DNA from: Candidatus Limnocylindrales bacterium
GTDB lineage: Bacteria; Moduliflexota; Moduliflexia; Moduliflexales; JAUQPW01
DNA length: 20,000 nucleotides
Direction: 5' to 3'
NCBI GenBank assembly: GCA_035559535.1
Contig: DATMBG010000022.1
Span: 172,568-192,567 of the forward strand
Position numbers and translations under genes: made by a program. The notes below the pieces were generated by a model. The model had not been told where the DNA came from. It saw only the letters and a list, made by a program, of their open reading frames with translations, and ran no database searches. Shown one piece after another: positions 946-19,120 of this stretch. Positions within the stretch are counted from its first letter, which is position 1. Each line of letters starts with the position of its first letter.

Positions 946-1746
946 ATGCTTGAGAAGATCAAGGATTTTAGTCTTTCGGCTAAACTGGCCTCTCTGATTG
1001 TAATTGCGTTACTCCTTTACGGTTTTTGTATTTTTTTCCTGTTGAGTTATCTACTTGATCAGAAATTTAATAGTGTTTATCCTACCGTTCGAGGAATGAT
1101 GGTCGCCCAGATGGTAGCCCATAATCTGGCCAATACTTCATTAAACGGAAGCAGTATGACTAAAAGTCAGATCCAGCAGACTTTAAATTCTTATGATCCA
1201 TATAAAAGATACGGACTCTTCTATATCATTGTGCAAAATGATAAAAATGAGGTGGTGGCCACCACGTTAGAAACGACCCCCTCTCCGGAACTGATTAAAG
1301 CAAATGAACTGACCCAGGGAAAAGAAATACAAAACAGGCGGTTTAAGTCGGGGGATAACACCATCCAGGACGTTGCCGTACCTATTGGGGATTCCCAACA
1401 ACCTAAAGGAGTTGTTCGAGCCGGGGTCCTGGAGCAGAGTGGAAGTGAAACAGGTTGGGAAATAATCAAAGAGGGAAAAATCCATGAGGTTTTGAATCCT
1501 CTTCTATGGGGAATTTTTACCGGAGCTATTGTGATAGGCTCCCTTCTGATGCTTTTCTTTTCTAAGATTATCGTGCAACGTGTTCAGTACCTGATTGATG
1601 TCGCAGACAAAATGAGTTTTGGAGATTTGGATGTGAAGATCGTTCCAGGTCCTAAGGATGAACTGGGAATATTGGGGGAAACTTTAGAAAGTATGCGGGC
1701 CAATCTCAAAGACGCCATCGAAAGACTTAAAAAGCGAAAACAGTAA
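946..1746 (+). CDS. Membrane sensor-like protein: 2 TM helices, extracytoplasmic (Cache-like) domain, C-terminal HAMP, no output domain
   Basis: Hydrophobic stretches at aa ~14-36 and ~186-209. HAMP signature RVQYLIDVADKMSFGDLDVKI...DELGILGETLESMRANL, after which the protein ends. Confidence 0.85.
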   Translation: MLEKIKDFSLSAKLASLIVIALLLYGFCIFFLLSYLLDQKFNSVYPTVRGMMVAQMVAHNLANTSLNGSSMTKSQIQQTLNSYDPYKRYGLFYIIVQNDKNEVVATTLETTPSPELIKANELTQGKEIQNRRFKSGDNTIQDVAVPIGDSQQPKGVVRAGVLEQSGSETGWEIIKEGKIHEVLNPLLWGIFTGAIVIGSLLMLFFSKIIVQRVQYLIDVADKMSFGDLDVKIVPGPKDELGILGETLESMRANLKDAIERLKKRKQ

Positions 1747-1785
1747 TTTCTTTTTAAACTCAGTCTTTAATGAGGAGTAGGGACC

Positions 1786-2289
1786 ATGCCGAAAAAGATA
1801 GATGGAAGTAAAATTACCATATTATCCTCTGAACAGTATGAAGCCATTAAAAAGTGTTTAGGAGAACTTTACTCCAAGACCAAGGCAAATGCGGTTCTTT
1901 TTGCCGATATAGCCGGTCAGCTTATAGGTGAGCGGGGAGATACCTCCCATATTAATACAACGGTTCTGGCCGCTTTGGCTGCAGCCGATTTTTCGGCCAC
2001 TGCGGAAATGGCCAAATTGGTCGGAGAAGAAGCCCGATTTAAGCTTCTCTTCCATGAGGGGGAAAAGAATAATGTCTACCTTACCAATGTCGGAGATGAG
2101 TATTTTTTGATTATCATTTTTCAATCTAATGTGGCTTTGGGGATGGTAAGGGTTTATACCAAAAAAGCGGTCGAAGCCCTGGATAAGATCATCAAAGAGG
2201 GGGGTAGCAGTAAAACTGTTACAGATATTATTGATGATGATTTTGGAGAACTCCTGGCAAATGAGTTAGATAGCTCATTTAAAGAGTAA
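1786..2289 (+). CDS. mglB: Roadblock/LC7 protein, MglB (GAP of MglA)
   Basis: AVLFADIAGQLI, LAALAAADFSATAEMAKLVGE..F..LFHEGEK, LGMVRVY; acidic C-terminal tail; RBS GAGGAG upstream; directly before mglA. Confidence 0.92.
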   Translation: MPKKIDGSKITILSSEQYEAIKKCLGELYSKTKANAVLFADIAGQLIGERGDTSHINTTVLAALAAADFSATAEMAKLVGEEARFKLLFHEGEKNNVYLTNVGDEYFLIIIFQSNVALGMVRVYTKKAVEALDKIIKEGGSSKTVTDIIDDDFGELLANELDSSFKE

Positions 2290-2312
2290 CTTGTCTCCTA
2301 TCTATCACGACT

Positions 2313-2897
2313 ATGTATATTAACTGGGCTTTACAGCAAATCAATCTGAAGATCGTTTATTATGGCCCCGGTGTCAGTGGAAAAACCACCAATTTGCTTT
2401 ATATTCACTCTAAAGTGGCTCCAGAACTTAAAGGAGAGCTCGTTTCCCTTCAAACCCAAGAAGACCGTACCATCTTTTTTGACTTCCTCCAACTGGAGGT
2501 AGGTAAAATAAAAGGGAAAAAACCAAAATTCAATTTATATACCGTCCCAGGTCAGGTGTATTATGCTTATAGTCGAAAGGTCATCCTAAATGGAGTGGAT
2601 GGGGTGGTATTTGTAGCCGATTCTCAATTCGATCGACTGGAAGCCAATCTTGAAACCCTGAACGATCTGGAGAATAATTTGAAACAGGATGGACATAAGA
2701 TGGATGAGTTTCCTTGGGTTATTCAATACAACAAGCGAGATCTTCCCAATGTAGCCCCTATTCCTTATTTACAACTCAAACTGAATAAATATAACGTTCC
2801 CTATTTTGAAGCGGTGGCCAATAAAGGGATCGGAGTTTTTGAAACCCTTAAGGCAGTCATTAACCTGGTAGTGGCTAACGTCAGGAAAAAACTCTGA
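2313..2897 (+). CDS. mglA: Ras-like small GTPase MglA
   Basis: KIVYYGPGVSGKTTNL (G1), DRTIFFDF with the intrinsic Arg, LYTVPGQ (G3), QYNKRD (G4), EAVA (G5). Confidence 0.96.
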   Translation: MYINWALQQINLKIVYYGPGVSGKTTNLLYIHSKVAPELKGELVSLQTQEDRTIFFDFLQLEVGKIKGKKPKFNLYTVPGQVYYAYSRKVILNGVDGVVFVADSQFDRLEANLETLNDLENNLKQDGHKMDEFPWVIQYNKRDLPNVAPIPYLQLKLNKYNVPYFEAVANKGIGVFETLKAVINLVVANVRKKL

Positions 2898-10882: not shown

Positions 10883-10924
10883 AGAATCTGATCGGGAACC
10901 GGTTAAAACCATGAATCCTTACCA

Positions 10925-10979
10925 TGTAAGGGCGTAAGGCCTTACGCCCCTTGTACGGGCGGAGGGCCTCCGCCCCTAC
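10925..10979. repeat. Tandem pair of GTAG-type REP hairpins
   Basis: Minus strand GTAGGGGCGGAGGCCCTCCGCCCGTAC followed by AAGGGGCGTAAGGCCTTACGCCCTTACA; both are GGGCG...CGCCC palindromes. Confidence 0.8.
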
Positions 10980-11189
10980 TTCCAATAGCGCACGGGCATA
11001 ATCTAGCAAGCAGCAATGTGCTCTCGTCTTTGATCTGGAAATTCTGCAATAATTTCCTCAGTAGTATGGGCCGGCTGCAAGGTACCTAAGAATAAGACTC
11101 CCAGGAATTTTAGTCCCTTTTATTCGGGGTTTACCCCGAAGCACATCAGCCGTACTTATAATACGATCTCTCCAGTCTACCCGTATCAT
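10980..11189 (-). pseudogene. DUF433-family (antitoxin-like) pseudogene, last cassette of the array
   Basis: RBS GGAGGA then ATG at 11189: MIRVDWRDRIISTADVLRGKPRIKGTKIPGSLILRYLAAG, frameshift near 11070 (stop TGA 11060-11058), HTTEEIIAEFPDQRREHIAAC in another frame, second frameshift near 11006, LDYAR. Matches the DUF433 pattern GKP.I.GTRI.V..IL..LA.G...EEI...FP.L...I.A.L.YA. Not called by the ORF track. Confidence 0.85.
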
Positions 11190-11208
11190 ATCCTCCTTTC
11201 GCATTAGG

Positions 11209-11285
11209 GCCTAAAGGCCTGCACTTCACCTGCGGCGAACCGAACGCAACGAGGCGAAGCCGTCAGGTGCAAGCGCATGTTAGCA
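11209..11285 (-). mobile_element. Integron attC site (77 bp) with mutated R' core
   Basis: Minus strand: TGCTAAC(R'')-ATGCG-CTTGCACC(L'')-TGACGGCTTCGC...TTCGCCGCA-GGTGAAG(L')-TGCAGGCC-TTTAGGC(R', GTT changed to TTT). The extra base in L'' fixes the minus strand as the top strand. Confidence 0.88.
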
Positions 11286-11504
11286 CGCACTAGGGTAGCG
11301 CTGTCCGTTTGCCCGGTACCAGGCTTTCTCGTAAAATCAGGTTATCGATATTCGTAATATCCTACGACTCTTATCATCTGCATTTGCTTGACAACTTTAA
11401 TTTCAGCTACTTAGATAAACTACTACAGAAAGATTGTCCGAAAAAAAACGGTTAGTTCTGCAAATCGGTCATAACGTGTTGATGCAATTTAGATAATGTG
11501 ACTC

Positions 11505-11570
11505 ACTTTAAAATACTTGTACATATTATGTCAAGAAAATTTTTCTTAAGTTAAGAAAAATTTTCTTAAC
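11505..11570 (-). promoter_or_regulatory. Perfect 17-bp inverted repeat (operator-like) abutting a putative TTGACA -35 box
   Basis: AAGAAAATTTTTCTTAA-G-TTAAGAAAAATTTTCTT (11533-11567); each arm is itself nearly palindromic. Minus-strand TTGACA (11534-11529)-N18-TAAAGT. Confidence 0.55.
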
Positions 11571-11597
11571 TATAGTTTTTACAGGTATTGCAGCAAA

Positions 11598-13091
11598 TCA
11601 CTCCTGCTCCAAAGTTGCAAGTATCTCTTTACAGTACCCCTCAGCGGTCTGTCGTTCATAATCGTAAAGCGATTGATCTCGATTGTGAGCCAAAGGAGTT
11701 CTTATTTTTGATAATAATTGGGCACGTTGATCCCAGTAGTTCTTGTCTTTGCCAAAAATATCTCTGAAAATTGCCCATTCAGCAAAGATAATGTCGAACA
11801 GGTCTCGCGGATAAGTGAACTCGATCAAATTTCGAGATGCTCTGCTTCCAAAAGACTTTTCCTCTCTCTGTTGTACTTCTGTACACCTCTCAAAAATCGG
11901 CTTCAAATTTGGTCTCGCCTTACACAACTTATCAACCCACTGCTCACCATACTGTTCTCTCATCTTTTCTGTAATCAGCCGTCGCAAAGCCACCTCAGTT
12001 TTCTTCCATAAAGGCCATAAATCAACCTGGCGCCCAATCATTTTCAAATAGGTCTGAAAATGTTCTGAAAATGCCACATAATTCCCTTGTTCAGTGAGTT
12101 TGACGAGGCCATATCTTTGTAGTTCTTCCGCATCGGTTGGTCGGGCCTCAATAACAGGGCCGAATAGAATTTGCAGAATCTTACTTAGGCTTTTATCCTC
12201 ACGAAGTACGTCAAGCATGTGTTCATAATGATGAATAAAAGATTGTTCGACTCGCTTAACCGCTTGGCTTACATCAACTACATTAGTTTCCCGAAATAGT
12301 TCCACCACCTCGTATCCCACCATATCGAGAAGATAAGGATGACCGCCGCAATAATACAGAAAGCCTTCTCTAATTTGCGGTGTTATGCTGATACCAATTG
12401 ATGATAAACGTGCAAGATACGCCTCAAATGCCTCATCATCAAACATACCAAGATAATAGTTCTGGAAAACACCTTCTAACGTTGAAATAGCCTTTGTCTG
12501 GAATTCAATACTCTGCAGAGATCTGCGAGATGTTGTTATTAAAGTCACCCGCCATTCCGGGCGATATGACAATTCGCGAAGCCCTTGAAAACTTGAAATA
12601 TCTCCCCGAAAAAGATGACGTGCATGATCAAACTCGTCCAGAATAAAAAGAATGCGTATTCCGGCTTGGCGAACTTTCTCAAAATATCGCTGTATACGTC
12701 CGTAACCTTCACTCCACGAGACCTCATCTTTTAGGGCGCCTTCTGCCGCTCTCTTTACTGTATCAGTCAACCATCCCAGACCTTCTATCTCATCATAACT
12801 GTTTGTGACAAGCGAGCGGAAAAATATCGGCGCTTGATCAAAGGTCGCCAGATTGATCCAAATCGGAATGCGTTTTTTCTCCAGCAAGTCACTTTTGCGT
12901 GTCATTATGGAATGATAAACCAGACTACTCTTTCCAATTCGATAATCACCAATAAGTGCCAGATTTCCTGGCTCTGTTGGTCGGATGACTCGATTTTCAA
13001 CGGCACGAATGGCATCAGGGCGGTTTATAAAGCGCTCTCCATATACAATGTTTCCGTAATCACTGAAAGGATTAGCAAAATCACGCTCCAT
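11598..13091 (-). CDS. STAND-like (AAA+) ATPase fused to a C-terminal Swt1-like HEPN ribonuclease domain
   Basis: NPF...F.NR, Walker A GDYRIGKSS (aa 48-56), Walker B FILDEFD, GGHPY (GxP-type motif). C-terminal TEVALRRLI...W...FTYPRDLFDII..W..F...F...RTPLAHNR contains the HEPN RxxxxH motif (R464/H469). Confidence 0.82.
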   Translation of the reverse strand: MERDFANPFSDYGNIVYGERFINRPDAIRAVENRVIRPTEPGNLALIGDYRIGKSSLVYHSIMTRKSDLLEKKRIPIWINLATFDQAPIFFRSLVTNSYDEIEGLGWLTDTVKRAAEGALKDEVSWSEGYGRIQRYFEKVRQAGIRILFILDEFDHARHLFRGDISSFQGLRELSYRPEWRVTLITTSRRSLQSIEFQTKAISTLEGVFQNYYLGMFDDEAFEAYLARLSSIGISITPQIREGFLYYCGGHPYLLDMVGYEVVELFRETNVVDVSQAVKRVEQSFIHHYEHMLDVLREDKSLSKILQILFGPVIEARPTDAEELQRYGLVKLTEQGNYVAFSEHFQTYLKMIGRQVDLWPLWKKTEVALRRLITEKMREQYGEQWVDKLCKARPNLKPIFERCTEVQQREEKSFGSRASRNLIEFTYPRDLFDIIFAEWAIFRDIFGKDKNYWDQRAQLLSKIRTPLAHNRDQSLYDYERQTAEGYCKEILATLEQE

Positions 13092-13099
13092 CTTTCACC

Positions 13100-16000
13100 T
13101 CACCGATGAGCGAGCAGCCATTCCCTGAATAGCCCAACGCGAATAGAGTAGTATTGCCCTCGTTCGCGTTCGATAACGTCTCGCCTAACAAGATCTTCGA
13201 GAATCTCATCAGCGGGTGTTTTCGTCTCGCAAGCAATATTGCTTCGGCCGCAGGGTCCGGTGCGACTATTTTCGGCAATCGAGGTCAGTACTTTTAACAC
13301 ATCTTTATCGCTAATCGCATCCGGCGATGTATCGCCAGAGTTGATCAAGTTGTCAAACTTGTCTTTTCCTAGCGCATTCACCCCGCGAATGAGCTCGTCT
13401 TTCACCTGTTCCACATCAGCCTCTGTAACAAGACTGGCACGTTTGCGATTCATATACTCAACCAATCTATTACACAAAATCTGGATGTAGAAAGGACTTC
13501 CCGCTGTAAGCTCCAGAATACGCTCAATGGCGCGTTCCCGATAACGGCTTTCCCCGAAACGTCCACCGATACGAATCGGCTCATCAATCAATCGCATAGC
13601 ATCTTCTCTCCTGAGATAAGTCACCCTTTCATCTTGCGTTGTCCCAAATTCGTTTGGAAAACGTTGCTTGAACTTGGGCATCACATCCTGTCCAACGAGC
13701 ACCGCGTTGAAAAAGTTATCTTGTAATAAGGCTTTCCAGTTCTTCATAAATGATTCTGGGATGAACTCATTCATAATATACCCATAAATGTATGAGAACT
13801 CGTCTATCAACAGAATAACTCGCATCCCTTGCCAGTCAGGTAAATTGGTAGTAGCCCGGCGAAAACTTTCAAAAATATCTCTGAAAAGTACTAATGGGCT
13901 TGGGTGCTGATAAAATTCCAAATCTGCAGGGAATGAAATCCCTGGCGGATTTTTGCCTTGTGAAACTTTATCCTCAATAGCATCTCGCAGCGCCTTCAGG
14001 ATTGTCCAAAGAATCTGATAGAGGAAAGGAACTTTTGAGTGTTCATCTAGAATCGCTCCGATATTGCCTATATTAAGAACAAGCAAATCATCTTTTGTCT
14101 CCAGTCTCTTTTTTAGATGATACAGAATAGATGACTTGCCAGCGCGCTTTTGCCCATAAATCACTACACACTTACTTTGGCTTCGCGATGTTTCAAGCGC
14201 TTTGGCCACATTTGCAATCAGGTCATCGCGCCCATAGAACATCGTTGGCTCGCCGACAATGCCACCTTCGGCATAAGGAGCGTATGGGTTTTCAATTTCC
14301 TCAAAATCCTGTTCTGAACTTAACCGAATTGAGAAATTGGCAGCAGGCGTCTGTTGAATTTCTCCAGACCGCGTGCGGTAACGAGCATGTATAGGAAGTG
14401 AAAAAGCTTGGGCAGAGAGGGCCTCTTCACTCAGTTGAATAGGGACCCTCAAGATGCGCTGCTCGCCACCTCGCAAAGACCCATCCAATCTGACAGAAAA
14501 CGTATCCTCATACTCTTGCACAACTAACTCTAACGCCTCCGCAGGACTGCATCCTGTTCGATTACTAACTACGACCTGGACTTCTATAGAACGGTCATTG
14601 TCAGGTGTACAGGTTTCAATAGGCAAGCGTAAGGTCAATTGAGGCGTTGAAGTTTCATAGAGCTGTTCCAGGTAAACTTTTGTCTTCTCTTGGATACTCT
14701 TGACAAGCGGATACATCTCCTCTACCGAAATCTTTGTTGAACTTGCTTCAATCTCTCTCAGCAAGTCCTGGCATCTGTTCTCAATTTGAATGCAAAGTCG
14801 TTCCTTTTCTTCAAAGACTGTTTGAACACATAGGTCTAGAGCGGTTTCCAGTACTTTCTGTATTTGTATAGCCCTCTGTCGATCTAGGTCAAAAAAGAGA
14901 TTTTCAGCAATCGCCTTGACCCTTTCTATACCGTGTTCAAGGGAAGCGGCGGTCAGTTCAACCTGAGCCAACGCGCGAAGCTCATTGAGCAAGGAACGTT
15001 GTTCATCCAGTTTTTTCCTCACCAATTCGTTCCATAATTTGACAAAATCATCTAATTTTTTGACGGGCCCAACGCTTATACCTGATGCCCTTAAATACTC
15101 TAGCGCCATTGCCTGTAGTGACGATTTGTCATAAAGGCGGTTAAGCAAGCGACTAGCCGCATACCGGCTGCGGAAAACAAGATAAGCAATCGCCTCAAAG
15201 ACTTTGTTTCGATCTGGGTGATGAGTTAGCACATATTCGAGTGTTTCATCAATGGAAGGTATGCTGGGCTTGATGGGAATTTGCGCTGGTCCCATAGTCG
15301 AAAACAGAAATCTTACCAGAGCATTAACTGCATCTTGTTCAATCCCTTGGCTCCGATCTCCATCGTATGCACTTAACGACTCGCAGTAAAACTCCCGTGC
15401 TGCGTCTAACGGTCTATTTTCAACAACAATTGCATCACCAGAAGAAGCGAAGCTACGACAAAGGTACTTGTAGAACTGATTGGGATCTTCATCTTCCAGC
15501 AAGGAAGCTATTTTTGCCGCAGATAAATAGTAACCAGCGCGCTCCCGCGGGCGAATAGTTCGAGAACGTGTTGCTAATTGCTCCAGTGTGAAAATATCAT
15601 TGCGATCAAAATTCCGGCTTTGAATGTGATCCGCTCGCACTCCCTGATAATCACAACGCTCTAAGAAAAACCTAGCGAAGCCACTAATCTCTCTAGATAC
15701 GTCCGATAGTGCTGTCTCTACAATGATCTCGTTAATCGGAAGCATCTGCCCCGCTTGAGCTTGTTTGATCGCTTCCAACAATTCTACAGCCTGCGCGTCA
15801 GGCGCAGTTTTCAGAATGCGATTCAGGATTTGTTCTGCTTCTTTGTAGCGGCCTTGTTTGAAGAGACAAAGCGCAATATTCCTCTGCGCTGTACGATTAT
15901 CAGGCTGTGAACGTAGCACTTGGCGGAAAGTCTGTTCGGCCAAAGCATAATCTTCTTTCCTGAGATATCCAATGGCAATCTGCCATAAGATTTGCGCCTT

Positions 16001-17764
16001 CTTGGTTTCTGTAGTGGCTTGCTCAAGTTTCCTCTGTAGTAATGAAATGGCTTTATCATGCTGACCAGCGCTCTGATAGAAATTAATCAGCATATTATCT
16101 ACAGATTGCTGGTTAGAAATCCGACTTCGGTTCCTTTCCAAAACCCGAACAGCCTCGTCTGAGCGTCCAAGTTGAACCAGCAACGCGGCCAAGTCTTTGA
16201 CGGCACTTTCGACATTATCCCCTTGCTTGATAGCATCACGAAGCAACTGAACTGCTCGTTCTAGGTCTTTCTCGACCAACTGCACACGTTTAGCCCGCGC
16301 ATAGGGATTTGACCCTCTAGGGACACCGATAACTCTGGCATACTCACGCCACTTGTCGTATGCCTCTTGTGCCGATGGATAGTTTGAATTGGCCTCCAAA
16401 ACTCTTTTTACAAGGGCAATTGCTTTAGAGTAATCACCATCACTGGCATACTCAGTAGCCCTTGCAAACATCTGGTCGAGAGTGCGATGGAGTGTAACCC
16501 TAATAGCGATGGGACCCTTCGGCCCCTGGCTGGGTTCAAAAGTTACCGATATCCGTTTGCCAACTGAGAAATCGCGAAGTTGTTCAAGTAGGTCATCGTC
16601 GGATACTGCAGTGATATGGAAAAAGTAAGTTTCGCCATCGTTATCTTTCAAGAAGCCGAAACTGCGCTCTGGCTTGTAAGAGTAAATGAAGCCTTGCGGG
16701 TTGTCCGGAACTGCTTTTGCAGATTGGGTGGTTTTTGCTTCAACGAACTCTGAAATCACCTTTTGATATGTTTCGTCCGGCTGCCCTTGGAGACGTACAA
16801 AAGCATCCGGTATCAAATCTTGAGGCGCTCCCCCTTTTATCCAGCGTTGGACGATATCTGTGGCAAAAGGCTTGTTTCCACTGGCAAGAAGCAGGTAAAT
16901 ACCTGTTTCCAATAATAGCTCGATTTCTTTCTCTGAAACACTCGTAGATCTTCTCTGGGCTATATCTCTAATAGTTGGGTAGTTAGAGAACTTCTTGATC
17001 AAGCCAATGTAGACATACCAGGCGTGTAATACCTCTACGTTAGGAATTATTTGGAAGAAACGCCCAAAACCGTAACAAGCCAGACCATCTTGTCCACTTG
17101 TTAAAGCCTTTGTTGCCAAGTTATACCAGTCCCAAGCATTATCGGAGATAGATGCAGCAGTCTTATATAAATTCAAGGACTCTTGATAGTTTCCTAAAAG
17201 ATGATGAAAATAGGCCAAATGCCGCTTTATCGAAGCAGAATGCGGAAATTGCTCTGAAAGGGAAGCGAGTTCATGTACTAAGGGTTGGATTCTTCCGAAC
17301 TTTGCACTTAGTTCATTGATTTTCTCTGCGTACTGATATTTATCCTTGACTCGGTTCCAAACTGTCAGTGCGCCAGCATTGTGCTTGCCTTTAATTTCAT
17401 TCGCTGGGAAGACAAAATCTGGTGCTTTTATTTGTACGGAAGAAACCTGTTGTCGAGCCTGAAAACGCGCTTCGATTTCTAATAGTTTCTTGATGGCTTC
17501 TTGATCAACAGGCTCTGTAGATATGCGCACAGGCGCTGGCTTTAACCTTAAAGTTTGTTGAGGGGATTCAGATTCAGCGCCCTTGAGAACACGCCAGGTG
17601 CTTATCACTTCCGTCAAAATAGTTACCAACTCTCCGGCACTATCTAAAGTGACATGATCGCGTCCGATCTCTATTAGGACTCCGCTTATCTCACGACCGT
17701 CTTTGAGACTAAAGATTACTGTGCTACCTATTGAAATTTGGCGTTGAATTATTTGTGAAAGCAT
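13100..17764 (-). CDS. Giant multidomain protein: Sm/Hfq-like, TPR, cold-shock (OB) domain, TPR/helical, Ig-like, STAND-like ATPase, winged helix
   Basis: aa ~10-60 GSTVIFSLKDGREISGVLIEIGRDHVTL (Sm1-like). aa ~358-424 GFIYSYKPERSFGFLK..GETYFFHIT...VTFEPSQGPKGPIA (CSD RNP1/RNP2). Multiple TPRs at aa ~140-240 and ~430-670. Beta-sandwich at aa ~1040-1150. NPY..G....FYGR, Walker A GQKRAGKSS (aa ~1205), Walker B LLIDEF, GSPFY. ATG at 17764, or TTG at 17767. Confidence 0.85.
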   Translation of the reverse strand: MLSQIIQRQISIGSTVIFSLKDGREISGVLIEIGRDHVTLDSAGELVTILTEVISTWRVLKGAESESPQQTLRLKPAPVRISTEPVDQEAIKKLLEIEARFQARQQVSSVQIKAPDFVFPANEIKGKHNAGALTVWNRVKDKYQYAEKINELSAKFGRIQPLVHELASLSEQFPHSASIKRHLAYFHHLLGNYQESLNLYKTAASISDNAWDWYNLATKALTSGQDGLACYGFGRFFQIIPNVEVLHAWYVYIGLIKKFSNYPTIRDIAQRRSTSVSEKEIELLLETGIYLLLASGNKPFATDIVQRWIKGGAPQDLIPDAFVRLQGQPDETYQKVISEFVEAKTTQSAKAVPDNPQGFIYSYKPERSFGFLKDNDGETYFFHITAVSDDDLLEQLRDFSVGKRISVTFEPSQGPKGPIAIRVTLHRTLDQMFARATEYASDGDYSKAIALVKRVLEANSNYPSAQEAYDKWREYARVIGVPRGSNPYARAKRVQLVEKDLERAVQLLRDAIKQGDNVESAVKDLAALLVQLGRSDEAVRVLERNRSRISNQQSVDNMLINFYQSAGQHDKAISLLQRKLEQATTETKKAQILWQIAIGYLRKEDYALAEQTFRQVLRSQPDNRTAQRNIALCLFKQGRYKEAEQILNRILKTAPDAQAVELLEAIKQAQAGQMLPINEIIVETALSDVSREISGFARFFLERCDYQGVRADHIQSRNFDRNDIFTLEQLATRSRTIRPRERAGYYLSAAKIASLLEDEDPNQFYKYLCRSFASSGDAIVVENRPLDAAREFYCESLSAYDGDRSQGIEQDAVNALVRFLFSTMGPAQIPIKPSIPSIDETLEYVLTHHPDRNKVFEAIAYLVFRSRYAASRLLNRLYDKSSLQAMALEYLRASGISVGPVKKLDDFVKLWNELVRKKLDEQRSLLNELRALAQVELTAASLEHGIERVKAIAENLFFDLDRQRAIQIQKVLETALDLCVQTVFEEKERLCIQIENRCQDLLREIEASSTKISVEEMYPLVKSIQEKTKVYLEQLYETSTPQLTLRLPIETCTPDNDRSIEVQVVVSNRTGCSPAEALELVVQEYEDTFSVRLDGSLRGGEQRILRVPIQLSEEALSAQAFSLPIHARYRTRSGEIQQTPAANFSIRLSSEQDFEEIENPYAPYAEGGIVGEPTMFYGRDDLIANVAKALETSRSQSKCVVIYGQKRAGKSSILYHLKKRLETKDDLLVLNIGNIGAILDEHSKVPFLYQILWTILKALRDAIEDKVSQGKNPPGISFPADLEFYQHPSPLVLFRDIFESFRRATTNLPDWQGMRVILLIDEFSYIYGYIMNEFIPESFMKNWKALLQDNFFNAVLVGQDVMPKFKQRFPNEFGTTQDERVTYLRREDAMRLIDEPIRIGGRFGESRYRERAIERILELTAGSPFYIQILCNRLVEYMNRKRASLVTEADVEQVKDELIRGVNALGKDKFDNLINSGDTSPDAISDKDVLKVLTSIAENSRTGPCGRSNIACETKTPADEILEDLVRRDVIERERGQYYSIRVGLFREWLLAHR

Positions 17765-17802
17765 CAAAATTACCTGATCATCAGTTTGGTATCTCCAACA
17801 TT

Positions 17803-17866
17803 CCTTAACCTGTTGCCGCCCCGCGAAGCGCAGCGGAGCGGCGTCGGCTGCAAGCGCTAATTAGCC
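17803..17866 (-). mobile_element. Damaged integron attC site closing the toxin-antitoxin cassette
   Basis: Minus strand: GGCTAAT(R'', AAC changed to AAT)-TAGCG-CTTGCAGC(L'')-CGACGCCGCTCCGCTGCGCTTCGCGGGGCGGC, then L' missing and a candidate GTTAAGG. Lies 16 bp after the vapC stop. Extended R'' GCTGGCTAA is the reverse complement of the cassette's start TTAGCCAGC. Confidence 0.8.
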
Positions 17867-17882
17867 AGCGTATCTTGTCTTT

Positions 17883-18269
17883 TCACCACAAGCGCGTAAT
17901 TTCATAGGCATCAAATACCGCATCACTGCTTACAAGGGACATCTGTTCGATTTGAGCCTGTGCTACCAGAAGACGATCGAAGGGATCACGATGATGGAAA
18001 GGTAAGGCCGCCACCTTCGCTGTATGGCTAATCATAATATCAAGTAGCCCGATACGATTCAGACTCGGTTGGTGCGGGATGAACGTCTTAAAAGATTGTG
18101 CCAATTGTAACCGGCCAAGACTGATCTTGATGGCCATTTCCCACAGACTGGCAACGCTGAGATAAACGTCGTTGGTCAGATCTTCAATCAATGTCCGCGC
18201 AGTGGGACTGAGACGCTCATCTCCACCGATAAACCCCAAGAAAGTGTGCGTATCGAGGAGCAGTTTCAT
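17883..18269 (-). CDS. vapC: VapC-family PIN-domain toxin
   Basis: LLLDTH, SVASLWEMAIK, HRDPFDRLLVAQA, LVSSD; start overlaps the antitoxin stop (ATGA). Confidence 0.93.
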   Translation of the reverse strand: MKLLLDTHTFLGFIGGDERLSPTARTLIEDLTNDVYLSVASLWEMAIKISLGRLQLAQSFKTFIPHQPSLNRIGLLDIMISHTAKVAALPFHHRDPFDRLLVAQAQIEQMSLVSSDAVFDAYEITRLW

Positions 18270-18490
18270 GGCATATAGGTATTAAAGTCAGGGAGAGGTG
18301 CGTCAAAGTTGTCTGCCATGACAATCAGCCCTTTCGCGCTCCCAAATTGGCGACGGGCGACAGAGGCCACAGGCACCAGTTGTACGGCTTCTTGAAGATC
18401 TTTGACGATCAACACCGTTTCCCCTTTCAGTACCGCATTAATCAACTCGAACAAACGGTCCTTGGCTTCTTCTAAATTGACTTGAAGCAT
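18266..18490 (-). CDS. Phd/YefM-type antitoxin
   Basis: VNLEEAKDRLFELINAVLKGETVLI...LVP N-terminus and RQFGSAKG.I.M..NFDAPL.DF C-terminus; RBS GGAGGA; directly upstream of vapC. Confidence 0.9.
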   Translation of the reverse strand: MLQVNLEEAKDRLFELINAVLKGETVLIVKDLQEAVQLVPVASVARRQFGSAKGLIVMADNFDAPLPDFNTYMP

Positions 18491-18538
18491 TTTGTCCTCC
18501 TTTCCGCGTTCTCACTCTGCATTGTGCCACCTTGTGCT

Positions 18539-18586
18539 GGCTAACGGTCTGTGTTTCGCGGCGTCAGGTGCAAGCACGTATTAACC
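18539..18586 (-). mobile_element. Internally deleted integron attC site (48 bp)
   Basis: Minus strand: GGTTAAT(R'')-ACGTG-CTTGCACC(L'')-TGACGCCGC-[deletion]-GAAACACAGACC-GTTAGCC(R'). Shares GCTTGCACCTGACG with the attC at 11209-11285. Confidence 0.82.
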
Positions 18587-18669
18587 TGCGTTCTTTGTGA
18601 AAGACTAAATTCTTGCATAATAAGGTATATGCTTTGGTTCTGCGTTTTTATCGCCTGTTACAATCTTCC

Positions 18670-19020
18670 TGAGAATATAAGGTGGCTCAGAACCACCTTG
18701 ACCTCTTCGCACGTCAGGACAATGGGCAAGCGCTTTGGCTTCCGGACGCAAATTACTGACCAAGATCGCCGATGTCACGTCCCAGAAAGGCGCTGACTCG
18801 TTCCTTCAGGGCTAACTGAGAGAAAAGCATTGATTTCCGGCTCGCCCATCTCCGCTGGATGGTGCTTGTTGTGAAAGAAGATGAACCGCTTGATCCATAT
18901 CACATAGACATCTTCAGTTTGTGGGCTGTAATGACGGGCGTGAAGCACCTGACGGACTTGATCCAGAGGCTTTGGCTTGGTAGCGCCAGCACCACTTCCC
19001 ACCAGACCCTTGTTATCCAT
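18670..19020 (-). pseudogene. intI: Integron integrase pseudogene (N-terminal SAM-like domain and linker only)
   Basis: KPKPLDQVRQVLHARHYSPQTEDVYVIWIKRFIFFHNKHHPAEMGEPEINAFLS, then via frameshifts and deletions LALKERVSA / LGRDIGDLGQ / VRKPKRLPIVLTCEEVKVVLSHL. The usual STQNQALSALLFLY segment and the whole catalytic domain are missing. Confidence 0.92.
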
Positions 19021-19120
19021 CGCCCTATCAAGCGGGACGCTTAACCTAACTTATCATAACAAAACAAGCGAATTACTCGGTCAGAATTGGCAGGGAGGGC
19101 CTTTGCAGCCACATAACCGA

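What the first reader, a model, noticed from the sequence alone, without database searches (positions are those of the whole stretch)
11598..17764. Candidate undescribed two-component STAND-ATPase defence system: RNA-binding sensor ATPase plus ATPase-HEPN RNase, inside an integron array
Seen: two intact ORFs 8 bp apart, each with a similar STAND-like ATPase module (NP[YF]..G...F..R, Walker A GxxRxGKSS, hhhDEF, GxP[FY]). The larger has Sm-like, cold-shock, TPR and Ig-like domains N-terminal to its ATPase. The smaller has a C-terminal Swt1-like HEPN domain with an intact RxxxxH. The unit lies between attC sites beside toxin-antitoxin cassettes. Known: Avs and bacterial NLR-like proteins are usually single genes ordered effector-NTPase-TPR sensor; HEPN domains are RNases activated by dimerisation; integron arrays are enriched in anti-phage genes. 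Inference: sensor and effector are split over two ATPases that hetero-oligomerise, like paired sensor/helper NLRs, and trigger RNA cleavage or abortive infection. I do not recognise this architecture as a named system, but cannot check novelty here.
Basis: partly seen in the sequence, partly recalled or inferred. Interest (0 to 1): 0.92.

Follow-up and report, generated by a model that had tools for sequence, protein, structure and literature searches.

The report
Paired-ATPase HEPN RNase cassette, untested
Two tightly linked genes, a giant RNA-binding-domain ATPase and a smaller ATPase ending in an RNA-cutting HEPN domain, form a conserved mobile unit carried as an unusually large integron cassette; it is most likely an untested anti-phage suicide module.

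Summary
At 13100-17764(-) and 11598-13091(-), 8 bp apart, lie a 1554-aa protein (Sm-like barrel, helical repeats, cold-shock domain, TPRs, helical domain, beta-sandwich, nSTAND1-type ATPase) and a 497-aa protein (Arch_ATPase/ORC-like ATPase plus winged helix plus Swt1-type HEPN with Rx4H). The pair is a fixed unit. Starting from the small gene, 60 of 67 genome loci with room carry the large one directly upstream. Starting from the large gene, 77 of 77 loci with room carry the small one directly downstream. Natural single-chain fusions exist, some with a Schlafen/AlbA_2 tail in place of HEPN. The unit is an integron cassette: attC sites of one family follow the small gene here and in 10 other loci, next to a VapBC cassette and a decayed intI. 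It is absent from a same-genus genome and from the plasmid and phage collections. No PADLOC v2 model covers it. The idea is not wholly new. The STAND-ATPase-HEPN architecture was listed in 2013. A different family (nSTAND2) of two-STAND operons with HEPN effectors was predicted in 2021. This scan met the same pair before on other DNA (e1-3373441). Function is untested. Hetero-oligomerisation has only indirect and weak support.

The parts
13100..17764 (-). P2: large sensor-type ATPase, 1554 aa from the ATG at 17764
   Evidence: ORF. Homologues start at this ATG. Conserved directly upstream of P1 homologues.
17588..17764 (-). P2 N-terminal Sm-like/SH3-like barrel (one helix plus five strands)
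   Evidence: AF2 model. Profile against PDB: Lsm 6tfl E 0.0023, Hfq E 0.046. Weak Pfam LSM, DUF2642 and RimP-SH3 matches.
16730..17512 (-). P2 first helical-repeat block
   Evidence: AF2 model, helices 85-345.
16490..16693 (-). P2 cold-shock (OB) domain
   Evidence: Pfam CSD E 1.7e-6, 28.2 bits against cut-off 27. PADLOC CSD_V E 4.2e-5. Beta-barrel in the model.
15755..16480 (-). P2 TPR block
   Evidence: Pfam TPR_19 E 7.5e-22 and other TPR families. Model. Foldseek returned only generic TPR solenoids.
14321..15736 (-). P2 system-specific middle module: helical domain (14651-15736) plus beta-sandwich (14321-14638)
   Evidence: Model. The profile finds 622 representative proteins at E<=1e-3. 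In 140 of the best 150 it is followed by the P2-type ATPase.
13103..14320 (-). P2 C-terminal ATPase module (nSTAND1-type); Walker A K1211, Walker B D1322/E1323 in P0002 numbering
   Evidence: Pfam AAA_16 E 5.8e-10; nSTAND1 27.2 bits against cut-off 27.1 over model positions 14-330 of 379. Walker A and B invariant in 43 of 43.
12027..13091 (-). P1 ATPase plus lid plus winged helix (Arch_ATPase/ORC-Cdc6-like); Walker A K54, Walker B D152/E153
   Evidence: AF2 pLDDT 91. 2qen Z 17.8 with 315 residues aligned over model 7-351; 2fna Z 16.4. Foldseek 2qen E 7e-7. Motifs invariant in 43 of 43.
11601..12026 (-). P1 Swt1-type HEPN domain; R464..H469 at 11685-11702
   Evidence: Pfam PF18731 above cut-off. 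PADLOC PDC-M34B E 8.1e-11. R and H kept in 41 of 43. All-helical in the model.
11211..11281 (-). attC site closing the P2-P1 cassette (R'' TGCTAAC; R' mutated to TTTAGGC)
   Evidence: Repeat family D3. Homologous to the attC sites right after P1 in L002, L007 and L010, which fold as bulged hairpins.
17806..17870 (-). attC-like site between the VapBC cassette and P2 (3' half degenerate)
   Evidence: Its own fold is not better than shuffles (z -0.5).
18536..18590 (-). attC-like site upstream of vapB, with an internal deletion
   Evidence: Fold z -0.2.
17883..18490 (-). Neighbouring cassette: VapB-type antitoxin (18266-18490) and PIN toxin (17883-18269)
   Evidence: Pfam PIN E 5.4e-12. NCBIfam TA_VapB E 7.6e-12, below its cut-off.
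18640..19020 (-). Decayed integron integrase: N-terminal 81-codon ORF, then a frame change and an internal loss; the catalytic domain is absent
   Evidence: Pfam Phage_int_SAM_4 E 3.9e-16. TIGR02249 integron integrase E 3.4e-14 on model positions 2-51 of 315. Three-frame reading.

Best explanation
This is a mobile, two-component NTPase-gated RNase system of the STAND/NLR-like conflict type. It is most likely an abortive-infection style anti-phage (or anti-mobile-element) module carried as one integron cassette.

P2 is the input subunit. Its N-terminal Sm-like barrel, cold-shock OB domain, TPR arrays and a system-specific helical/beta-sandwich module bind the trigger, which I infer to be a foreign RNA, ssDNA or ribonucleoprotein. 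Its C-terminal nSTAND1-type ATPase acts as the switch.

P1 is the output subunit: an Arch_ATPase/ORC-like ATPase with a winged helix, ending in a Swt1-type HEPN RNase.

On trigger binding, the ATP-bound P2 and P1 NTPase modules assemble together. This brings HEPN domains into the dimeric arrangement they need for catalysis. Cellular and/or invader RNA is then cut and growth stops.

Shown: the anatomy, the intact catalytic motifs in both ATPases and in HEPN, the obligate gene pairing, the natural fusions, the effector swapping, and the cassette-borne, patchy distribution.

Inferred: the defence role, the nature of the trigger, the hetero-assembly, and HEPN activation by proximity.
For: Anatomy.

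Conservation: Walker A Lys and Walker B Asp-Glu are invariant in 43 of 43 for both ATPases. HEPN R..H is kept in 41 of 43.

Pairing, seeded with P1 in genome contigs: 73 loci, 71 with a P1 hit, 67 with at least 1300 bp of room upstream. Of these, 57 have a P2-type ATPase directly upstream by the script, and 3 more (L066-L068) have a fragmented P1 but a P2 present. That makes 60 of 67, with spacers of mostly 7-15 bp.

Pairing, seeded with the P2 ATPase: 80 metagenome loci (the best 80 of 262) plus 1 viral contig. 77 of 77 with room have P1 directly downstream; 4 have too little room.

Fusions:
- P0124, 2393 aa: Sm - middle module - P2 ATPase - whole P1.
- P0123, 1152 aa: whole P1 - part of the middle module - P2 ATPase.
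- P0125, P0226 and P0234: middle module - P2 ATPase - P1 ATPase - another tail. In P0125 the tail is SLFN_AlbA_2.

Mobility:
- attC sites of one family follow P1 in the window, in L002, L007 and L010 and in 7 of 81 further loci.
- P1 is 60-82% identical across records labelled as many phyla.
- The same-genus genome G001 (97% complete) lacks the system, while a same-order genome has it.
- The genes are single copy in the window's own genome.

Sensor modularity: 8 of the 60 P2 forms are short (Sm plus ATPase, 503-656 aa). The Bacteroidota forms start at the cold-shock domain.

Complex prediction of whole P1 with P2 residues 1150-1555: weak support, score 0.51, best of 3 controls 0.00. The mark was reached by 58 of 80 solved complexes and 2 of 110 mismatched pairs, but at 0.60 or under by only 7 of those 80 and by both mismatches that passed. 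The runs share at least 84% of contacts and partner pLDDT is at least 84. My own alignments were used, so these counts hold only roughly.

Background from papers: integrons store defence systems (passages of bioRxiv 10.64898/2026.03.17.712381). HEPN domains act as dimeric RNases in defence (passages of PMC13092281, and PMC3710099).
Against: There is no experiment on any member that I could find.

Neighbours are not a consistent defence island. Of 150 flanking ORFs from 52 loci, the commonest Pfam families are PhyH (6), sulfatase (4) and AAA_19 (4). No PADLOC family is matched by more than 3.

There is no match in 72,556 plasmid or 50,697 phage records, and only 1 distant viral-contig relative.

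The complex prediction is only weak.

The HEPN fold was not confirmed structurally: the fold searches were filled by the ATPase, and phmmer against PDB found nothing.

Two homologues (L023, L039) have lost both R and H.

The Sm-like assignment is weak.

No promoter-like site lies upstream of P2 on its strand.
Confidence: 0.6

Rival explanations
1. It is an addiction or cassette-stabilising module. P1 is a HEPN toxin held in check by P2, and the pair persists because losing it kills the cell, as toxin-antitoxin cassettes are thought to stabilise integron arrays. No invader is sensed.
For: It sits in a cassette array beside a VapBC pair. HEPN domains are common toxins of TA systems (Anantharaman 2013, passages seen). 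The two genes are never found apart.
Against: About 2050 residues with two ATPases whose catalytic motifs are invariant, plus modular sensor-like N-termini, is far more than a TA pair needs. Effector swapping to Schlafen/AlbA_2 and single-chain fusions do not fit a labile antitoxin. Most loci show no attC of this family.
Confidence: 0.12
2. The same parts are wired differently. P2 is a guard or inhibitor that sequesters P1. Trigger binding releases P1, which then homo-oligomerises through its own ATPase to activate HEPN. No hetero-ring forms.
For: P1 has a complete NTPase plus winged-helix module of its own. One P1 homologue (L064, 59% identity) has a different upstream ATPase partner of AAA_35 type. 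P0122 carries two P1-type ATPase modules in tandem without a P2 module. The hetero-complex prediction is only weak.
Against: Fusions place the P2 and P1 ATPase modules side by side in one chain, in both orders. That fits co-assembly better than release.
Confidence: 0.15
3. It is a housekeeping or stress RNA-processing machine, for example a cold- or stress-responsive RNA decay factor using Sm/CSD RNA binding. It would not be a conflict system.
For: Sm-like and cold-shock domains are typical of RNA chaperones. Many flanking genes are metabolic.
Against: It is absent from a 97%-complete same-genus genome. It is cassette-borne with attC sites. P1 is near 80% identical between records labelled as unrelated phyla. 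Its genomic position is variable.
Confidence: 0.05

Closest known systems
nSTAND2 two-gene counter-invader system (Kaur, Iyer, Burroughs, Aravind, eLife 2021; section 15 and Fig. 6C legend read)
   Same: It is a mobile two-gene operon. Both products have a STAND-type NTPase core, one of them is fused to a variable effector that is often a HEPN RNase, and a toroidal hetero-multimer is predicted.
   Different: There the effector-bearing NTPase has eroded NTP-binding motifs; here Walker A and B are invariant in 43 of 43. Pfam nSTAND2 (PF20702) matches neither module at E<=1 and matches nothing in this genome (though the control genomes were silent too). Here P2 is nSTAND1-type and P1 is Arch_ATPase/AAA_35-like. 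That system's source data are supplements I could not open, so overlap of members cannot be fully excluded.
[quoted passage not shown] 2013 (passages read)
   Same: Same HEPN family and the same kind of NTPase-HEPN fusion. These are probably members or relatives of the P1 family.
   Different: It is only a domain-architecture entry. The passages I saw describe no partner gene, no two-ATPase unit and no cassette. I could not fetch those proteins to test identity.
Avs/AVAST and other single-chain prokaryotic STAND defence proteins (Lee et al. 2026, abstract and section 5 read; Avs4 8dgf and EfAvs5 9jap appear among the fold hits)
   Same: An NTPase switch flanked by a repeat-rich sensor and a nuclease-type effector, with expected ligand-induced oligomerisation and cell-suicide logic.
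   Different: Here the functions are split over two NTPase proteins. The sensor is N-terminal to its NTPase and the effector is C-terminal to the other. The input domains include Sm-like and cold-shock nucleic-acid binders. There is no PADLOC Avs match. Whether either NTPase falls in one of the 589 clades of Lee et al. is in supplements I could not open.
Paired sensor/helper NLRs of plants (recalled from general knowledge; NRC resistosomes 9cc9 and 9ria are among the fold hits)
   Same: Division of labour between a sensing NLR and an executing NLR.
   Different: There is no homology beyond the shared NTPase fold. In plants the helper forms its own homo-oligomeric resistosome. Nothing here shows which model applies.
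PrrC/RloC anticodon nucleases (passage in PMC3710099)
   Same: An NTPase-regulated HEPN-type RNase acting as a suicide defence.
   Different: Those use an ABC-type ATPase, are a single protein, and are guarded by a type I R-M system.
PADLOC candidate PDC-M34 (component B)
   Same: The HEPN part of P1 matches model PDC-M34B (E 8.1e-11, residues 365-480 on model positions 68-178 of 192).
   Different: The match covers the HEPN domain only. No PDC-M34A match was found, and the model is a roughly 190-residue protein without an ATPase. No paper holds the term 'PDC-M34'.

Membership tests
STAND/ORC-Cdc6-clade AAA+ NTPases (P1: Arch_ATPase/MNS-like; P2: nSTAND1) | P-loop NTPase with Walker A GxxxxGK[ST] and Walker B hhhhDE | tested here: met
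   Invariant in 43 of 43 for both proteins.
STAND/ORC-Cdc6-clade AAA+ NTPases (P1: Arch_ATPase/MNS-like; P2: nSTAND1) | NTPase core followed by a helical lid and a winged helix | tested here: met
   P1 model aligns to PAB2304 (2qen) over residues 7-351 (Z 17.8, rmsd 4.9, 315 aligned) and to SSO1545 (2fna, Z 16.4). P2: Pfam nSTAND1 covers model positions 14-330 of 379 at 27.2 bits against cut-off 27.1. The P2 module was not modelled.
STAND/ORC-Cdc6-clade AAA+ NTPases (P1: Arch_ATPase/MNS-like; P2: nSTAND1) | Family model above the curated cut-off | tested here: inconclusive
   P1: ATPase_2 at 17-18 bits (cut-off 33.2) and AAA_35 at 23-24 bits (cut-off 27), both below cut-off. P2: AAA_16 at 40.3 bits (cut-off 32.6) and nSTAND1 just above its cut-off.
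STAND/ORC-Cdc6-clade AAA+ NTPases (P1: Arch_ATPase/MNS-like; P2: nSTAND1) | Ligand- and nucleotide-dependent oligomerisation | not testable with these tools
   There is only a weak two-chain prediction.
Avs/AVAST | One polypeptide ordered effector - STAND NTPase - C-terminal sensor | tested here: not met
   Here there are two genes. The sensor domains are N-terminal to the P2 ATPase and the effector is C-terminal to the P1 ATPase.
Avs/AVAST | Match to an Avs model of PADLOC v2 | tested here: not met
   None listed at E<=0.1 for either protein.
nSTAND2 two-gene system (Kaur et al. 2021) | Adjacent genes each encoding a STAND-type NTPase, one fused to a HEPN or GT4 effector | tested here: met
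nSTAND2 two-gene system (Kaur et al. 2021) | The effector-bearing NTPase has eroded NTP-binding motifs | tested here: not met
   P1 G48, G53, K54, S55, D152 and E153 are invariant in 43 of 43.
nSTAND2 two-gene system (Kaur et al. 2021) | The NTPase modules belong to nSTAND2 (Pfam PF20702) | tested here: not met
   Not among the matches at E<=1 for either module. No match in the whole genome at E<=0.01, though the family rang in none of the 14 control genomes either.
Swt1-like HEPN (PF18731) | Family model above the gathering score | tested here: met
   32.7 bits against cut-off 27.5, E 9.9e-8. PF18731 is precomputed on most of the 120 listed homologues.
Swt1-like HEPN (PF18731) | Rx4-6H catalytic motif | tested here: met
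   R464-x4-H469 is kept in 41 of 43; it is lost in L023 and L039.
Swt1-like HEPN (PF18731) | Four-helix up-down HEPN fold | tested here: inconclusive
   The model is all-helical over residues 360-496 with pLDDT mostly 86-95, dipping to 67-69 around residues 461-480 at the motif. The fold searches were filled by the ATPase and did not reach this part.
Integron gene cassette | attC at the 3' end with R''-L''...L'-R' symmetry, folding as a hairpin with extrahelical bases | tested here: met
   L002, L007 and L010 sites lie 18-45 nt after the P1 stop, with GCCCAAC...GTTAGCG type ends. They form hairpins with two single-base bulges (z -1.5, -3.7, -3.5). Window site A is homologous with a mutated R' (own fold z -1.6). 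Sites B and C are degenerate. No dedicated attC model was available (Rfam: nothing).
Integron gene cassette | Adjacent integron integrase | tested here: inconclusive
   Only a decayed N-terminal remnant is present (TIGR02249 E 3.4e-14 on positions 2-51 of 315, far below the cut-off of 265). It lies on the same strand as the cassettes.
Type II toxin-antitoxin pair | A small toxin neutralised by a small labile antitoxin | tested here: not met
   The proteins are 497 and 1554 aa, both with conserved ATPases.

The most novel reading that the evidence does not exclude
This would be a bacterial paired-NLR that senses nucleic acid. The Sm-like ring-forming barrel and the cold-shock domain of P2 would read a phage RNA or ssDNA pattern directly. 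The Sm domain, which in other proteins builds 6-7-mers, would help nucleate a mixed P2/P1 NTPase ring in which both ATPases hydrolyse ATP. That ring would be the platform switching on the HEPN RNase. It would be an RNA-triggered, RNA-cutting 'resistosome' that travels between phyla as a 6.5-kb integron cassette.
Probability: 0.2. Interest if true: 0.85.

Novelty: new variant of a known kind. Interest (0 to 1): 0.62.

Why it matters
If it defends, it would be the first worked example of a prokaryotic immune switch built from two different, both catalytically intact, STAND-type ATPases with sensor and executioner on separate chains. That is the logic of plant sensor/helper NLR pairs. Its input domains point to nucleic acid rather than the phage proteins sensed by the characterised Avs families.

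It is common in uncultured Chloroflexota, Latescibacterota, Poribacteria, Cyanobacteria, Bacteroidota and some archaea-labelled records. It is absent from the plasmid and phage collections. Both facts help explain why E. coli-centred screens and PADLOC v2 miss it.

It also shows that an integron can carry a cassette of about 6.5 kb. The cassette paper I read reports that recombination falls with cassette size.

Tried and rejected
- Rfam, whole window, gathering thresholds: no family.
- Fold search of the P1 model: every listed match covers the ATPase. The HEPN part was not reached, so nothing can be said about its fold from these.
- phmmer of the HEPN part against PDB: only chance-level rows.
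- Foldseek of the P2 1-1159 model: only generic TPR solenoids (IFT-A, Ctr9, Ski3 and the like), uninformative for the middle module.
- ESM Atlas for P2 residues 677-1150: no usable hit.
- ssDNA folds of window sites B and C are no better than shuffles (z -0.5, -0.2). I therefore call them degenerate.
- Promoter and terminator scan of 11000-19100: counts are within the shuffle range, and no promoter-like site lies upstream of P2 on the minus strand.
- Sequencing runs: no RNA holder listed; two DNA holders, one of which may be the source. No reads were laid.
- Plasmid and phage collections: no match.
- Literature: 'PDC-M34' appears in 0 papers. Searches combining Swt1/HEPN/STAND/defense, HEPN/STAND/cold-shock/TPR/anti-phage, integron/cassette/anti-phage/HEPN/ATPase and STAND/two-gene/HEPN/anti-phage/Walker found no paper describing this pair. 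DefensePredictor (passages) and the Hma-embedded systems preprint (passages) describe other HEPN systems.
- The idea that a third gene belongs to the unit: a PhyH-family gene follows P1 in 6 loci, which from the coordinates I take to be the ~290-aa ORFs next to P1 in the related Latescibacterota/Poribacteria records. It is absent here and elsewhere, so I rejected it as shared local synteny.

Full report
WHAT IS THERE. On the minus strand, a 1555-codon ORF (13100-17767; the real start is the ATG at 17764, where homologues begin) is followed after 8 nt by a 497-codon ORF (11598-13091). I call them P2 and P1.

Pfam places a Swt1-type HEPN domain on P1 residues 368-481 (E 9.9e-8, 32.7 bits, cut-off 27.5). 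The N-terminal two thirds of P1 give weak AAA_35 and ATPase_2 matches. On P2, Pfam places a cold-shock domain (358-426), a long TPR block and AAA_16 (1177-1324). The P2 ATPase module scanned alone reaches nSTAND1 just above its cut-off (27.2 against 27.1 bits, model positions 14-330 of 379). The two ATPase modules resemble each other only distantly (26% identity, E 3e-4).

STRUCTURE. The AlphaFold2 model of P1 (42-row alignment, pLDDT 91, pTM 0.86) is an AAA+ core plus lid plus winged helix (residues 1-355), followed by an all-helical domain (360-496). The front part aligns over its whole length with the archaeal Walker-type ATPases PAB2304 (2qen: Z 17.8, 315 residues; Foldseek E 7e-7) and SSO1545 (2fna: Z 16.4). 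The NTPase core also aligns with ORC/Cdc6, TnsC, NLRC4, Apaf-1, plant NLRs and Avs4. The fold searches never reached the HEPN part. The HEPN call therefore rests on the Pfam and PADLOC profile matches and on the conserved motif.

The model of P2 residues 2-1160 (39 rows, pLDDT 85) shows, in order:
- a helix plus five-strand barrel;
- a disordered linker;
- a helical-repeat block;
- the cold-shock barrel;
- the TPR block;
- a roughly 360-residue helical domain;
- a roughly 105-residue beta-sandwich.

The first domain gives weak but coherent Sm-fold signals: Lsm 6tfl E 0.0023 and Hfq E 0.046, and DUF2642 17/36, RimP-SH3 16/36, LSM 9/36, all weak.

CONSERVATION. P1 has 922 relatives at E<=1e-3 among the candidates scored. 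The best 120 are 60-82% identical over the full length. In 43 paired homologues, Walker A Gly/Lys/Ser and Walker B Asp/Glu are invariant in both proteins. HEPN R464 and H469 are kept in 41 of 43; L023 and L039 have lost both.

THE PAIR IS A UNIT. I seeded a genome scan with P1 (73 loci) and looked for P2 with tblastn. Of 67 loci with at least 1300 bp upstream, 57 have a P2-type ATPase ending right before P1. Three more (L066-L068) have a P2 beside a fragmented P1. Spacers are mostly 7-15 bp.

The seven others are:
- L044: truncated P1 next to a transketolase.
- L071: a 40-residue P1 fragment.
- L048: an ABC ATPase upstream.
- L054: a thioredoxin upstream.
- L070: a TPR protein upstream.
- L026: a 105-aa Sm-like ORF only.
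- L064: a different, 530-aa AAA_35 ATPase upstream.
(for the upstream proteins; for L071)

Seeding instead with the P2 ATPase module in metagenome contigs (the best 80 of 262) and viral contigs (1), all 77 loci with room downstream have P1 directly after P2.

The middle module of P2 (helical domain plus beta-sandwich) finds 622 representative proteins at E<=1e-3 and 277 at E<=1e-30. In 140 of the best 150 it is followed by the P2-type ATPase. The other ten carry the module but have no ATPase hit in the same chain, and most of them are short. So the module belongs to this system.

FUSIONS AND MODULARITY. A search among longer proteins found 4 relatives, and the representative search added 2. 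With my own HMMs and Pfam, the architectures are:
- P0124 (2393 aa): Sm - middle module - P2 ATPase - complete P1.
- P0123 (1152 aa): complete P1 - part of the middle module - P2 ATPase.
- P0125, P0226, P0234 (2026-2180 aa; 35% identical between P0226 and P0125 over about 2000 columns): middle module - P2 ATPase - P1 ATPase - another tail. In P0125 the tail is SLFN_AlbA_2.
- P0122: a TCAD9-like region followed by two P1-type ATPase modules.

Fusions in both orders argue that the two NTPase modules work side by side. The Schlafen/AlbA_2 tail in place of HEPN is the effector swapping typical of conflict systems.

P2 itself comes in three forms: long (about 1500-1660 aa), short (Sm plus ATPase, 503-656 aa, 8 of 60), and Bacteroidota forms that start at the cold-shock domain.

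A two-chain prediction of whole P1 with P2 1150-1555 gave weak support only. The score was 0.51 and the best of 3 controls 0.00. The mark was reached by 58 of 80 solved complexes and 2 of 110 mismatches, but at 0.60 or under by only 7 of those 80 and by both passing mismatches. The runs shared at least 84% of contacts and partner pLDDT was at least 84. My own alignments were used.

CONTEXT. Three copies of a repeat (core CGTCAGGTGCAAGC on the plus strand) lie at 11261, 17842 and 18562. This core occurs as a cluster nowhere else in the 5.6-Mb genome. The same element, 79-92% identical over 40-72 nt, lies 18-45 nt after the P1 stop in L002, L007 and L010. It also lies 35-60 nt after the P1 stop in 7 of 81 further loci.

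Aligned, these are textbook attC sites: RYYYAAC...GTTRRRY ends and an imperfect inner palindrome. They fold as hairpins with two single-base bulges (z -1.5, -3.7, -3.5). Window site A (11211-11281) is a good copy with one change in R'. Site B is degenerate in its 3' half. Site C has an internal deletion.

The array reads, on the minus strand: decayed intI (N-terminal 50 residues match TIGR02249 at E 3.4e-14, then a frame change and loss of the catalytic domain) - attC C - vapB/PIN - attC B - P2-P1 - attC A. The P2-P1 cassette spans about 6.5 kb.

Elsewhere the neighbours vary. The two nearest ORFs on each side were taken from 52 loci, and 150 of the 175 were scanned. The commonest Pfam families are PhyH 6, sulfatase 4 and AAA_19 4. 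PADLOC families are matched by at most 3 ORFs (mad2 3; helicase, DRT, AbiO and similar models 2 each). So there is neither a conserved housekeeping context nor a clear defence-island signal.

The phylum of this genome holds only 9 species genomes. The same-genus genome (97% complete) lacks the pair, and one same-order genome has it. There are no matches in the plasmid or phage collections.

INTERPRETATION. The anatomy is that of an NTPase-gated effector system of the STAND/NLR kind, with input and output on separate NTPase chains. I rate a conflict (abortive-infection type) role at about 0.6. The grounds are the HEPN effector with an intact motif, effector swapping, modular input domains, obligate pairing, cassette-borne mobility and patchy distribution. 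The trigger (nucleic acid, suggested by the Sm-like and cold-shock domains), the mixed assembly and activation by HEPN proximity are all inferences.

The rivals are an addiction module, a guard-and-release wiring, and housekeeping RNA processing.

WHAT IS KNOWN.
- PADLOC v2 has no model for the system. Only the HEPN domain hits candidate PDC-M34B, and the cold-shock and TPR parts hit retron-associated models weakly.
- NCBIfam has nothing for P1. Sources name its relatives 'Swt1 family HEPN domain-containing protein' or 'ATP-binding protein'.
- Anantharaman et al. 2013 (passages) list Swt1-like HEPN fused to 'STAND-ATPase, TPR, S1'. They also mention HEPN-STAND proteins with cold-shock domains in Bacillus, with HEPN at the N-terminus.
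- Kaur et al. 2021 (section 15) predicted a mobile two-gene operon of two nSTAND2 NTPases forming a hetero-multimer, one of them inactive and fused to GT4 or HEPN. This is the closest published concept, but two of its defining features fail here.
- Lee et al. 2026 (abstract and section 5) classify 589 STAND clades. Their tables are supplements I could not open.
- An earlier report of this scan (e1-3373441) describes the same pair in another genome inside BREX remains. My pairing counts agree with it. I did not test the BREX context.

VERDICT. This is a real, widespread, well-conserved and experimentally untouched two-ATPase HEPN unit. It is a new variant of a known kind rather than a new kind. 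The cassette context and the natural fusions are the new facts added here.

Noticed in passing
window 10905-10985: Two adjacent perfect GC-rich hairpins lie right after the polysaccharide deacetylase gene. The ssDNA fold is -22.2 kcal/mol with z -5.4. It is probably a terminator or a REP-like element marking the edge of the cassette array.
   Followed up: partly
window 10990-11196 (-): A small frameshifted ORF lies beyond attC A. Its two reading-frame pieces ('...RGKPRIKGTKIPGSLILRYLAAG' and 'TTEEIIAEFPD..REHIAAC') look to me, from memory only, like a DUF433-type antitoxin-like protein.
   Followed up: partly
window 11290-11597: About 300 bp of AT-rich spacer lie between the P1 stop and attC A, with a 20-nt near-perfect palindrome at 11530-11570 (I2). 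In L002, L007 and L010 the attC follows P1 within 18-45 nt and this spacer has no counterpart.
   Followed up: no
L064:2230-3822: A P1 homologue (59% identical) is preceded by a different 530-aa AAA_35-type ATPase that tblastn with P2 does not find. This may be a partner swap.
   Followed up: partly
L046:10001-13645: The P1-like ORF runs on to 779 aa. A second P2-type ATPase module (63% identical to P2 residues 1149-1554) lies just downstream at 12419-13639. This may be a tandem or rearranged copy.
   Followed up: no
L023 and L039, P1 homologues: Both the Arg and the His of the HEPN motif are replaced (A..Q and G..Q) while both ATPases stay intact. The effectors may be inactivated.
   Followed up: no
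L024, L027, L029, L032, L033, L037 downstream of P1: Pfam finds a PhyH-family dioxygenase in 6 of the 150 flanking ORFs scanned. From the coordinates I take these to be the ~290-aa ORFs that follow P1 on the same strand in these related Latescibacterota/Poribacteria records. The tool did not list which members matched. It is not present in the window.
   Followed up: partly
window 946-2897 (+): A run of genes encodes a HAMP-domain protein, a Roadblock/LC7 protein and a small Ras/Arf-like GTPase. It is an MglA/MglB-like polarity or signalling set and is unrelated to the finding.
   Followed up: no
G001 (same genus) against G000: The same-genus genome (97% complete) has no P2-type match, while G007 in another family of the order has a close one (E 2e-205).
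   Followed up: partly
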